From IMG/VR virus record IMGVR_UViG_2909282993_000001, positions 1 through 56,388 of that record: a DNA stretch of 56,388 nt, one strand, 5' to 3'. Below, one piece after another: positions 51,001 to 54,000 of this stretch. Within the stretch, counting starts at the first letter, position 1. Every line of letters begins with the position of its first letter. A program made the position numbers. This stretch comes from a virus (Duplodnaviria > Heunggongvirae > Uroviricota > Caudoviricetes).

Positions 51001-54000
51001 ATACTACAGACTTTTTGCTGGCTGGTTCAATTTGGAAAGATCCTCAGGACTGGATGAGGGGGCTAAACAAAAAAGAACGCTTCTTATCTGCCACATGGAA
51101 GGGAACAAAAGAAATACCATTAAAAAACAATATCGATACTATCTCTATTGAGGCCAGAGCGAACAATTCCACTCAGGGATATGTCTATCTGCAGTACTCA
51201 TTTACAAATGACGAAATTTGTCAGGAAGAAATTGAAGGGGCGAAAAAAAGTTCCCTTTAAACAATCCGTGCAAAGCCCCTTAGTAAGGGGCTTTTATATA
51301 TTAATGTTCAACGGGGGGGATTAGATGAAAGATAATCTAGAAAAACTAATTGAAAATACTTTAAAAGATATTCTATTAGCTAATGCTGCTCTAACATTCA
51401 TTTTTGCAATACCAATGGCTATTATCAGTAGGCATGGGATGGGCATCACAATCTGGTTTATAACTGTGCTCATTGCACCTGCTCTGTGTGCAGTAGGTGC
51501 ATGGCTTGTATCTCGAACATTCGGCCATGCTGAGGAGTTCTTTCATCGTCGGTGGGCTAAGCGAATCTATGTTTTTTATACTCTTGCGGCTGCCGAGTTT
51601 TTGCTTGTGTACTCAATCGCGCAAATAATGAAAAATCTGATGAAATAATTAACAAGTTATTATCATGGGGTTTGTGGCTGTTAACCTGCAGTGAGGCGAC
51701 AATCGTGTATTTATAAAAACTTCCCCTTTTCACTCCCCGCTGTTTCTTCTGCTATTTCCTTTATGTTTGCATGCAGCAACATCTGCCATACCTTTGCAGA
51801 AAAATCAGAGCATTTAGTGCCGAAGGTTGGTTTATTGATGCTTTTTGTTTCATTTATTGCAATTATCGATGGTATTATTTCAATTTGTGCAATAATTGCA
51901 ATTATTGTCATTCAGAAGGGATCATCATGAAAAATCACGGAGTAAAGCCAGTTTTACTTTCCCGGGGGCAGATCGAAGCCCTGCAACGTATCCAGGCCGA
52001 AAAGCGTCAGAAATCTGTGCTTGGTGTGGCACCGTCGATTTATGTTATTGCCCGGCAACTGATGGATAAGGCACTTAAAGAGGTGAGGCTGTGAAATTAA
52101 ATATCAGAGTGGATAAACGCCAGCTATGGCAGAAAAAAGAGAACAGCGAGGCATTCAGGGCTTTGCTGGTGGAAAATCTTCGGCACCGGTTCAGTGGAGA
52201 GTTGCCTGATGCACTGGGGAAGAAACTGGAATCCCTGACGGTGGAAATTGGCGATTATGGCTTTGTTGATGTTGAAAGCACGACTGCCAACACAGAAATC
52301 GTAAAGCAGGTCGTCAATGATGTAATGAAAACCACGCTTAGCCAGCCATCCTGGCGCAACTGAATCAGTAAGGGGCGGTTATTGCCCCTTTCCTCCATAC
52401 CCACAACGCATTCCCTTTTCGCATTAAATTATTTTTTATCGTATATGCATGAGGTGAGCTACATGTTGATGAGTAAAGCCGAATACGCCAAATACAAAGG
52501 CGTAAGCCGCCAGACAGTTTACGACTGGATCGAGAAAGGCGAAGTGATCATGTCTGGCAAAAAAATTGATGTGGAGGCGACAGAGCAGCGGAACAGCCCA
52601 CCGGCACAGGGGAAAGACACCGTTTCTGAAATGTGGCCAGAAAGAACGCTGGAAATGACGTGGGGCGAGTTCTGGAAAGCAGTTAAGGCCAGAGACGGTA
52701 TAATCCCTGCGCCAGTAACGGACGACGACATACAGCAACGTGTGCTGGATGCAGCCGGGGAATTAGACTGGGAAGTGCAATTTCTTGATGATGGCGGGAT
52801 TTGGATGGATGACGGCGATGCTGAGTTTTATTTCGAGCAATATGATCTCAGGCAGAATGCCGAACTGGTGATTGGTACGCTGCGACGTGAGGTCTGTTAT
52901 GTGGCTGATGCTTGTCCTGACGAGCTGGATAACTGGAGCGAAGCCGGACTAAACGCCCTGGCTGAATGGGAAAAATCAGACCATCAATGACATCAAAAAG
53001 TGTCAAGTTGAGCAGCTTGCCAGGTTGACACTTTACACTCTGAACGCGAAAAAGTGTCAACCTCGCTGTAAGCCCCGCCATTACTGGGTTTGTGCCAGAT
53101 TTACCACGTCAAAAAGCCGAAAAAATCGCGAAAAGTGTCAAGTTGCTATGCTTAGAAATGCTAAGGTTTGATAAGGTTTTTCGCGAAAAAGTGTCAAGTG
53201 TGTCAACCGCGCCGCTTTAGAAAACTTTATGTGCAGATCGTTGGATGCATCTGTCAAAACTTGCCACCCACCAGCACCGCCAGCGGGGATTTTTGGCTAC
53301 ACGCGCTCTAAGTAACAGTTGCTTCAGTGCGTTACATACGTTGGAAGTGTTATAACTCAAGTTTTTGAGACAAAGTCAGAATTGTATGAATTTGTCTATA
53401 GCCGTCTACTCAAGTTTTCTACATAATATAAGGAAATAGCATGCTGTTTAATTAATGTACGATAATTCTGAAAGAGTAACAGATGATAAACTTAGATATG
53501 GATGTTGTGGTTGGACATGGGCAGAACGATTTTGAAGAATTAGAAATGAATTCCGGCATAAAGGTTTTTGCTGGAGCTTCTGACATCACCCAAATTACAA
53601 CAAGCACTATTTTAGATGATTCAGTCCCCAAAAAATCAACCTCTATACATGGGCTTAGGAATATGTTCAAACATACATTTGATGGATCGTTTGGACAAAA
53701 TTTTGAACTTAGAATTGATGATCCTGAAAAGATAAAAAGATTTAATGAAATTGGCAGGGGTGTTTTTTTTGATGTTATGTCATATTACATCTCTAAAGGA
53801 ATGGGAATAGCTCACCATCTTAAGAGCCAGAAAGCAATCGACTTAGTAGAGCGTCTTAAACCGCTTGAAAAACAACTTTTGATAAGAATTCAGGAACCTA
53901 TACAGAATTTACATAAAACAGTTGAGAAGCAAAAATATAATGTACTTCTGAGAAGAAGAACACCAACTAAAAAATTAGTTGTTGCTAAAATGGATACGCA

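What the first reader, a model, noticed from the sequence alone, without database searches (positions are those of the whole stretch)
52463..53209. HTH protein gene followed by an array of AAAGTGTCAA repeats
At least five direct and one inverted copy of a 10-bp motif lie within about 215 bp immediately after a gene encoding an HTH protein with an acidic C-terminus. This could be a binding array (autoregulation or partition-like), or a cis-acting replication or packaging region of the satellite, comparable in concept to the P4 crr repeats.
Basis: partly seen in the sequence, partly recalled or inferred. Interest (0 to 1): 0.45.

Follow-up and report, generated by a model that had tools for sequence, protein, structure and literature searches.

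The report
Satellite DNA-binding protein with conserved site array
A phage-satellite island in E. coli carries a gene for a two-domain DNA-binding protein followed by a conserved cluster of its probable binding sites, in the slot where related islands keep their DNA-packaging signal, so it is probably an undescribed way for a satellite to get its DNA packed into a helper phage's capsids.

Summary
AAAGTGTCAA occurs five times exactly in 56 kb (0.13 expected), all at 52997-53197: four direct and one inverted, plus an 8/10 direct copy and a degenerate inverted one. They start 7 bp after a 175-aa protein gene (52463-52990) with a winged-HTH N-domain and an acidic C-domain (pI 4.05).

The element is a Gram-negative PICI-type satellite at thrW, related to EcCICFT073. 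Gene and array travel together in about 100 loci from Escherichia, Klebsiella, Yersinia, Pantoea, Rouxiella, Raoultella and Serratia, whatever the primase type. Sites are conserved and spacers are not.

The replication origin is elsewhere: separate GGTAGACAG iterons in AT-rich DNA after the primase gene. Integrase arm-type repeats are also elsewhere.

The module fills the slot that holds cos plus rppA in EcCICFT073, and the two modules never co-occur. In Klebsiella relatives two unrelated small-terminase genes start right after the array.

Best reading (about 0.45): a satellite-specific packaging-recognition site bound by the HTH protein. The main rival is a regulator with its operator array (about 0.25). 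Nothing is shown biochemically. The window's copy has lost the distal ~75 bp of the array, and its primase is frameshifted.

The parts
52463..52990 (+). Gene for the 175-aa protein ('HTH175'). It has an N-terminal winged HTH (residues 1-44), a disordered linker (45-56) and an acidic alpha/beta C-domain (60-170).
52994..53208 (.). The whole array: a conserved non-coding nucleoprotein-site region. Similarity to related islands ends at 53208/53209.
52997..53006 (+). Site 1, AAAGTGTCAA, 7 bp after the stop codon.
   Evidence: Column conservation is 0.88 against 0.47-0.62 in spacers.
53025..53034 (-). Site 2, the inverted copy (TTGACACTTT on the + strand), within CCAGGTTGACACTTT.
   Evidence: Conservation 0.89.
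53032..53039 (-). Site 2', a degenerate inverted copy (AGTGTAAA on the minus strand) overlapping site 2.
53051..53060 (+). Site 3, AAAGTGTCAA within CGCGAAAAAGTGTCAACC. It is less conserved in other genera.
   Evidence: conservation 0.62.
53065..53092 (.). Central conserved non-repeat element GCTGTAAGCCCCGCCATTACTGGGTTTG, between the left sites (1-3) and the right sites (4-5').
   Evidence: Alignment of 10 arrays from 7 genera. Conservation 0.74. It is also the right-hand junction of the L029 deletion variant.
53132..53141 (+). Site 4, AAAGTGTCAA within CGCGAAAAGTGTCAAGTTG. This is the best-conserved site.
   Evidence: Conservation 0.96.
53148..53166 (.). Second motif type: the palindromic ATGCTTAGAAATGCTAAGG (CTTAG-N5-CTAAG). 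It occurs 3-4 times in Enterobacter relatives and is followed by phased TAAGG/TTAAG repeats.
   Evidence: Conservation 0.85.
53188..53206 (+). Sites 5 and 5': AAAGTGTCAA followed by GTGTGTCAA, a tandem double site 9 bp apart.
53209..53482 (.). Sequence that replaces the distal part of the array. About 45 relatives have TTAAG repeats, a further AAAGTGTCAA and CCTAAGATTTCCTAAG here. This marks the start of the variable cargo region.
48787..49155 (.). Context: the probable replication origin of the island. It has two sets of GGTAGACAG(TT) iterons, direct and inverted, flanking 28-31% GC DNA just after the primase gene.
   Evidence: The layout matches E. coli PICI origins in PMC6092414.
40735..40790 (+). 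Context: attL of the satellite, a copy of the thrW 3' end with the TCCTATTATC core. The integrase gene is at 40953-42167.
   Evidence: The same core is reported for the thrW island EcCIMP1 (PMC11773190).
55336..55365 (+). Context: attR of the satellite, a degenerate tRNA 3' copy. The cargo ORFs 53483-54310 and 54311-55090 therefore lie inside the island, between the array and attR.

Best explanation
The array is a satellite-specific packaging-recognition site, analogous to a pac site or cosB. HTH175 is the island's packaging-specificity protein.

Proposed mechanism:
- The basic winged-HTH domain binds the 10-11 bp GTGT(C/A)AA sites as several protomers on both flanks of a conserved central element, building a nucleoprotein complex on replicated island DNA.
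- The acidic C-domain contacts the terminase: the helper's TerS/TerL or, in relatives that have one, the island's own TerS. Packaging then starts on island DNA and proceeds towards the cargo genes and attR.

Shown: the sites exist, are far beyond chance, and are co-inherited with the gene across genera as a footprint. The module sits in the packaging slot of the PICI backbone. The ori and the att-arm sites are elsewhere.

Inferred: that HTH175 binds these sites, that the complex recruits terminase, and that packaging is headful rather than cos-type.
For: 1. Cognate pair. In about 100 loci the gene is followed within 400 bp by 2-7 AGTGTMAA sites, against 0-5 in the other 11-28 kb of each locus. 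The 42%-identity clade keeps GTGTAAAGC x3-4. The HTH residues are near-invariant. Sites score 0.87-0.96 for conservation and spacers 0.47-0.62. Two PICIs without the gene also lack the motif: EcCIMP1 by a motif search, and EcCICFT073, whose loci gave no HTH175 match (motif not searched there).
2. The array follows HTH175, not the replicase. Carriers have D5/DUF5906, Toprim/Zn-ribbon or DUF927 primases.
3. Slot equivalence. EcCICFT073 shares the backbone (Icd 94%, PerC 52%, DUF4222 49%, primase 43%). After PerC and the capsid genes it carries lambda-type cos plus rppA. None of the HTH175 loci has RppA or an exact lambda cosN.
4. Two unrelated TerS-type genes start right after the array in Klebsiella relatives. 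One is Terminase_2, 67% identical to Yersinia phage TerS. The other is DUF5681, whose phage homologues lie next to terL. Protease/scaffold-like and baseplate-like genes lie just upstream in others.
5. The N-domain's best PHROG hit is a TerS family (E 4e-6 and 3.7e-7). Its fold matches lambda TerS and RppC DNA-binding domains.
6. Layout. The sites span about 210-290 bp in both orientations around a conserved centre. This resembles cosB (R3-I1-R2-R1, PMC9026076) and, from my own knowledge, the P1 and SPP1 pac sites.
7. The variable cargo lies between the array and attR, as reported for SaPI pac sites (PMC12829572).
Confidence: 0.45

Rival explanations
1. HTH175 is a transcription factor and the array is its operator or enhancer. 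It would switch on or off whatever lies downstream (terS, the small 59-aa ORF, cargo genes) or set the end of the island's late operon. Several protomers would bind cooperatively, as in BldC, Cox or MerR-class proteins.
For: The fold is closest to Xis, BldC, Cox and MerR-type winged HTH domains, which bind arrays of direct repeats. The array sits directly upstream of terS or a conserved small ORF in many relatives. The motif's reverse complement contains TTGACA.
Against: No sigma-70 promoter-like site or terminator was found in the array. The downstream gene is not conserved: it is terS of two families, a 59-aa ORF, defence-like cargo, or reverse-strand genes, while the array stays the same. 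Six or seven sites over 210-290 bp plus two further conserved elements is much more than typical operators. The position is downstream of its own gene.
Confidence: 0.25
2. The array is a replication element: a second origin or a crr-like cis-acting enhancer, bound by HTH175 or by the primase.
For: It looks like iterons, with repeated 10-mers in both orientations.
Against: A canonical PICI ori with different iterons and an AT-rich centre lies next to the primase gene. P4 crr carries the same iterons as ori, which is not so here. The array has no AT-rich unwinding region (44-50% GC). It is conserved across three unrelated primase families.
Confidence: 0.07
3. HTH175 is the island's excisionase or recombination directionality factor, and the array is its binding region in an att arm.
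Against: The array is 2.1 kb from attR here, and a variable 0.5-9 kb away in relatives. No motif copy lies near attL or attR. Other repeats (GGGGGTAnnTTTGGGGGTAT) occupy both att arms. The island has an AlpA-family gene in the canonical position, and in the thrW PICI EcCIMP1 that gene is required for excision. At 175 aa with an extra domain, the protein is atypical for an RDF.
Confidence: 0.05
4. The pair is a single-protein partition or retention system. HTH175 would bind a centromere-like array to keep the excised, replicating island segregating, like pSK1 Par.
Against: PICIs are integrative and replicate only transiently. The model shows no coiled-coil or ATPase partner. The link with terS and virion-type genes is unexplained by partition.
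Confidence: 0.04

Closest known systems
cos1-RppA module of E. coli PICI EcCICFT073 (Fillol-Salom 2019, PMC6739421; Murialdo and Feiss 2022, PMC9026076)
   Same: It occupies the same slot in a homologous island backbone: after primase-PerC and any virion-type genes, and before the accessory genes and attR. The island protein has an N-terminal TerS-like winged HTH plus a second domain. A satellite-specific DNA site lies next to the gene. The two modules are mutually exclusive.
   Different: There is no sequence homology beyond about 29 HTH residues. The C-domain is different (acidic alpha/beta, a family of only 17 cluster representatives). There is no lambda-type cosQ/cosN. The site is downstream of the gene, not upstream. 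It has six or seven repeated sites, against a single proposed R3-like site.
Lambda gpNu1 (TerS) and the cosB R3-I1-R2-R1 sites
   Same: A winged-HTH protein of the same fold class binds several short sites in mixed orientation over about 120-200 bp, to position terminase.
   Different: gpNu1 has a TerL-binding C-terminus and its gene follows cos. Here there is no cosN and no TerS core, and the sites follow the gene.
SaPI TerS with its pac site, and the headful pac sites of SPP1 and P1
   Same: The satellite carries its own packaging signal and specificity factor, and accessory genes lie between the signal and the island end (PMC12829572). The repeated short elements flanking a central region resemble P1 pac, and the position just upstream of a Terminase_2 terS resembles SPP1 pac (both comparisons from my own knowledge).
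   Different: HTH175 is not a TerS homologue. E. coli members of the family have no terS at all. No cleavage site has been mapped.
P4 crr/ori iterons
   Same: Clustered short repeats in a satellite, at a distance from the replicase gene.
   Different: crr repeats are the same iterons as ori and bind the alpha primase. Here the ori iterons differ (GGTAGACAG), and the array is independent of primase type.
Xis, RdfS, Cox and BldC proteins: winged-HTH proteins that assemble on arrays of direct repeats
   Different: Those proteins are 50-90 aa single-domain proteins acting at att sites or promoters. HTH175 has an added 115-aa acidic domain, and its sites are at neither.

Membership tests
Gram-negative PICI (the island as a whole) | Tyrosine integrase at one end, an AlpA-family regulator, a primase/helicase followed by an iteron ori, about 10-20 kb flanked by att repeats, and no complete virion or lysis gene set | tested here: met
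   int 40953-42167, AlpA-like HTH, Icd-like, DUF4222, primase and PerC. Iteron ori at 48787-49155. att copies of thrW at about 40760 and 55336. The backbone is homologous to EcCICFT073.
Rpp (redirecting phage packaging) proteins | Sequence homology to RppA/B/C | tested here: not met
   phmmer against the PDB gives no hit to 6HLK/6HN7 at E<10, whereas RppA hits 6HLK at 5e-31. hhalign of the family profile against RppA gives probability 21% over 29 residues.
Rpp (redirecting phage packaging) proteins | Lambda-type cosQ-cosN immediately upstream of the gene | tested here: not met
   No GGGCGGCGACCT with 1 mismatch or fewer in the island, and none exact in about 105 related loci. The upstream spacer is not conserved and is only 6 bp in L003.
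Rpp (redirecting phage packaging) proteins | N-terminal winged HTH that mimics the TerS DNA-binding domain | tested here: met
Rpp (redirecting phage packaging) proteins | Binds helper TerS and redirects packaging to the island | not testable with these tools
   This needs two-hybrid or pull-down assays and transfer assays.
Small terminase (TerS) | A TerS family domain with an oligomerisation core and a TerL-binding tail | tested here: not met
   No Pfam terminase domain. The phrog_57 match covers only residues 1-42. The C-domain has no TerS-like fold match.
Excisionase / RDF (Xis, AlpA, HTH_17) | Binding sites in an att arm next to the crossover core | tested here: not met
   All motif copies lie at 52997-53206, which is 2.1 kb from attR and 12 kb from attL.
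Excisionase / RDF (Xis, AlpA, HTH_17) | A small single-domain winged-HTH protein | tested here: not met
Iteron replication origin / P4 crr | Iterons shared with the ori or bound by the replicase, next to an AT-rich unwinding region | tested here: not met
   The ori iterons are GGTAGACAG. The array is 44-50% GC against 28-31% at the ori. The array is independent of primase family.
Structured RNA / Rfam family | Match to a covariance model | tested here: not met
   No Rfam hit at E<=1 in 52300-53500.

The most novel reading that the evidence does not exclude
HTH175 with its array is a self-contained, portable 'package-me' module. A non-terminase adaptor protein marks satellite DNA and recruits terminases of unrelated families (Terminase_2, DUF5681, or the helper's own) through its acidic domain. 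The same module would then serve satellites with different replicases, hosts and helpers, and would drive headful packaging and lateral transfer of the adjacent defence-gene hotspot.
Probability: 0.15. Interest if true: 0.8.

Novelty: new variant of a known kind. Interest (0 to 1): 0.55.

Why it matters
Only one packaging strategy has been worked out for Gram-negative PICIs (Rpp with a lambda-type cos). Many enterobacterial PICIs are scored as incomplete because they have no recognisable packaging module; EcCIMP1 is one such case (PMC11773190).

This module is present in 166 of 5,426 complete E. coli genomes and in at least six other genera, and all its proteins are annotated as hypothetical. 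If it is the packaging signal, three things follow:
- It would explain how these islands, and the defence or virulence cargo just downstream, are mobilised.
- It would give a compact cis element plus protein for engineering transducible DNA.
- It would define a new terminase-recruiting protein family.

If it is instead a regulator with its operator, it is a well-defined, conserved protein-DNA pair that is easy to test.

Tried and rejected
1. Lambda-type cos: no cosN in the island or in any related locus.
2. A shared cos with the neighbouring HNH/TerS/TerL prophage: blastn-short of the array against 1-40800 gives only chance 10-13-mers, and nothing in the HNH-terS spacer apart from a shared CGCGAAAAA 9-mer.
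3. Phage origin: no blastn or tblastn hit for the array or the protein in 50,697 phage genomes, and no significant BFVD fold match.
5. Motif-protein covariation: the HTH is invariant and the C/A variation in the motif occurs within single arrays, so there is no covariation signal.
6. Physical DNA ends from IMG/VR contigs: most are provirus predictions, and the metagenome contig breaks near the array are confounded by the variable cargo. This was uninformative.
7. Promoter, terminator and Rfam scans were negative.
8. EcCIMP1, an experimentally mobilised thrW PICI, turned out not to carry the module, so it gives no helper for this family.

Full report
**Observation**

The 10-mer AAAGTGTCAA occurs five times exactly in the 56-kb window, where 0.13 is expected. 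All five lie in 52997-53197: four direct copies and one inverted. An 8/10 direct copy with an exact GTGTCAA core sits at 53200-53206. A degenerate inverted copy sits at 53032-53039.

The array starts 7 bp after the stop codon of a 175-aa ORF at 52463-52990, which RefSeq annotates as hypothetical in an identical genome.

An AlphaFold2 model built on 28 homologues (pLDDT 88) shows three parts:
- a winged-HTH N-domain (residues 1-44);
- a disordered linker;
- an alpha/beta C-domain with 29 acidic and 9 basic residues, pI 4.05.

**Context**

The window holds a myovirus-type prophage integrated at tRNA-Thr (thrW, 1369-1444), with HNH, TerS, TerL, portal, protease and capsid genes at 17.6-23.6 kb. 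A satellite follows in tandem.

The satellite's gene order is: integrase (40953-42167), AlpA-like HTH, AntA, Icd-like, DUF4222, D5/DUF5906 primase, ProQ/FinO, PerC, two membrane/lipoprotein ORFs, two small ORFs, the HTH gene with its array, and two AT-rich cargo ORFs. A degenerate thrW 3' copy at about 55336 forms attR.

The backbone is homologous to the experimentally studied PICI EcCICFT073: Icd 94%, PerC 52%, DUF4222 49% and primase 43% identity.

**Is it a cognate protein-site pair?**

The protein family spans the Enterobacterales, and every member is annotated as hypothetical or as a generic HTH protein. Its C-domain has only 17 cluster representatives among 1.84 billion proteins.

I looked at about 100 loci drawn from complete genomes, GTDB species representatives and IMG/VR.
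- Full-length genes at 50% identity or more are followed within 400 bp by 2-7 AGTGTMAA sites.
- The remaining 11-28 kb of each locus has 0-5 such sites.
- The 42%-identity clade keeps GTGTAAAGC three or four times.

In an alignment of arrays from seven genera, sites 1, 2, 4 and 5 are conserved at 0.87-0.96 and spacers at 0.47-0.62. Two more elements are conserved. One is a central GCTGTAAGCCCCGCCATTACTGGGTTTG (0.74). The other is the palindrome ATGCTTAGAAATGCTAAGG (0.85), followed by TAAGG/TTAAG repeats spaced about 10 bp apart.

The first 42 residues of the protein are almost invariant. Decayed islands (L009, L012, L019) keep the gene or a fragment of it but have lost the array. Two PICIs without the gene give matching negatives. 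EcCIMP1 lacks the motif by direct search. The EcCICFT073 loci gave no HTH175 match, though I did not search them for the motif.

The array follows the HTH gene and not the replicase. Carriers have D5/DUF5906, Toprim/Zn-ribbon or DUF927 primases.

This is strong comparative evidence that the protein binds the array. It is not proof.

**What it is not**

*Replication origin or crr.* The 369-bp spacer after the primase gene (48787-49155) has two sets of a different iteron, GGTAGACAG(TT), flanking 28-31% GC DNA. This is exactly the layout described for E. coli PICI origins (PMC6092414). The array is 44-50% GC and lies 4.2 kb away.

*Excision site.* All motif copies are 2.1 kb from attR and 12 kb from attL. 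In relatives the distance to the island end varies from 0.5 to 9 kb. Other repeats (GGGGGTAnnTTTGGGGGTAT) occupy both att arms. An AlpA-family gene sits in the canonical position. In the thrW PICI EcCIMP1 that gene is needed for excision (PMC11773190).

*RNA or simple promoter.* There is no Rfam hit. No promoter-like or terminator-like site was found inside the array.

**What it most likely is**

Three lines point to DNA packaging.

1. *Slot equivalence.* In EcCICFT073 the position after PerC and the capsid-type genes, and before attR, holds the lambda-type cos1, rppA and cos2. There Rpp redirects helper terminase to the island's cosB (PMC6739421, PMC9026076). The HTH-array module sits in that same slot. 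No HTH-carrying locus has RppA or an exact lambda cosN, and EcCICFT073 has no HTH175.

2. *Neighbours.* In Klebsiella relatives the array is followed at once by a small-terminase gene, and by two unrelated kinds of it.
   - One kind is Terminase_2, 67% identical to the TerS of Yersinia phages vB_YenM.
   - The other is DUF5681, whose phage homologues lie directly beside terL at the genome start.
   
   In several E. coli and Pantoea relatives, protease/scaffold-like (DUF2213, phrog_6216) and baseplate-like genes lie just upstream. The array stays the same while the terS family changes or disappears. It is therefore more likely to be the HTH protein's site than TerS's site.

The layout gives weaker support. 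Several sites in both orientations around a conserved centre over 210-290 bp resembles cosB and, from my own knowledge, the P1 and SPP1 pac sites. Variable cargo between the site and the island end is what was reported for SaPI pac sites (PMC12829572).

**Caveats**

- Nothing here shows binding or packaging.
- The protein is not an Rpp or a TerS by sequence.
- The array is downstream of its gene, unlike cos.
- No cut-site sequence is shared with the neighbouring prophage or with any database phage. That fits a headful mechanism better than a cos mechanism, but E. coli members have no terS.
- No helper phage is known for this family.
- A regulator with an operator array remains a serious rival.
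- The window's copy ends at 53208/53209. It lacks the distal 75 bp or so (TTAAG repeats, one more AAAGTGTCAA, and CCTAAGATTTCCTAAG) that about 45 relatives have.
- Its primase carries a 1-nt deletion in a G-run at about 47661. This island may not be fully functional.

**Novelty**

I found no paper in the searchable library that describes this protein, motif or module. It is best classed as a new variant of a known kind: a satellite packaging-specificity module with a different protein and a different site architecture from Rpp-cos. That classification depends on experimental confirmation.

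Noticed in passing
window 48787-49155: The AT-rich (28-31% GC) spacer after the primase gene carries GGTAGACAG(TT) iterons in direct and inverted orientation (about 48815, 48847, 48909, 49000, 49057, 49129 and 49140). It is probably the island's replication origin.
   Followed up: partly
window ~47655-47661 (primase gene 46982-48786): There is a one-base deletion in a G-run (G5 against G6 in the otherwise identical NZ_CP024269). It splits the 601-aa primase into two ORFs. It could be a real pseudogene or a sequencing error.
   Followed up: partly
window 1369-1444, 40735-40790 and 55336-55365: The prophage and the satellite sit in tandem at thrW. The tRNA 3' copy at the satellite's attR is degenerate (GTATGTTCTGTTCCTATTATCG against GTAGGTTCGACTCCTATTATCG). 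This fits the reported PICI habit of damaging the attR tRNA fragment (PMC10111431). Upstream of 40768 the window differs from NZ_CP024269, so a different prophage occupies the same site.
   Followed up: partly
window 40898-40922 and 55263-55287 (also 41170-41189, inside int): GGGGGTAnnTTTGGGGGTAT repeats lie near both ends of the satellite. They are candidate integrase arm-type sites.
   Followed up: no
window 40804-40818, 40868-40882, 53355-53365 and 53404-53418; inverted partner at 43281-43305: The motif GTCTACTCAAGT(A/T)TT recurs near attL, upstream of the alpA region, and in the 270 bp between the truncated array and the first cargo ORF. It is unexplained.
   Followed up: no
window 43166-43231: There is a perfect-register tandem duplication of a 33-bp unit (TTACCATCACCCTTAGGGTAGATTTCCTCCCGA, 94% identical) between the 267-aa ORF and the alpA-like gene. 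It may be a regulatory region of the island's master switch.
   Followed up: no
window 53483-54310 and 54311-55090: Two AT-rich (about 32-35% GC) cargo ORFs lie between the array and attR. They match PHROG families of unknown function (13337, 8999) and have no convincing PADLOC or Pfam hit. Relatives carry OLD, HEPN/ApeA, AbiV, RnlAB or SieB in this hotspot, so these may be uncharacterised anti-phage genes.
   Followed up: partly
L029 (NZ_CM129873) 8985-9150, compared with window 52370-52386 and 53069-53086: A decayed sister island lacks the HTH gene and the left half of the array. The junction GTAAGGGGCGG|TTACTGG joins the hairpin after the 90-aa ORF to the central element. Those two window sequences (GTAAGGGGCGGTTA and GTAAGCCCCGCCATTA) resemble each other.
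   Followed up: partly
L020 (Yersinia enterocolitica) 10590-10720, compared with window 53081-53208: The right half of the array is about 93% identical between Yersinia and E. coli islands, although the adjacent proteins are only 56% identical. This suggests either strong selection on the DNA or recent exchange of the array.
   Followed up: no
L023 10771-11520 against Yersinia phage vB_YenM_29.18 terS (L027 2219-3250): The satellite's Terminase_2 gene lacks the roughly 94-aa N-terminal extension of the phage TerS. It has no ordinary start codon (the caller used ATT). Its homology to the phage gene begins right at the end of the array. Copies in L021 and L022 are degraded.
   Followed up: partly
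L017 and L018 (Klebsiella pneumoniae): Relatives of the island lie directly against prophage capsid-fragment and tail genes (E217/Pam3-type). They have a short 292-aa integrase, resembling the helper-embedded PICIs of PMC10111431.
   Followed up: no
window 51927-52094: A conserved 55-aa ORF lies upstream of the module and is present in most relatives. By eye it looks like a ribbon-helix-helix protein. It is a candidate binder of the palindromic second motif at 53148-53166.
   Followed up: no
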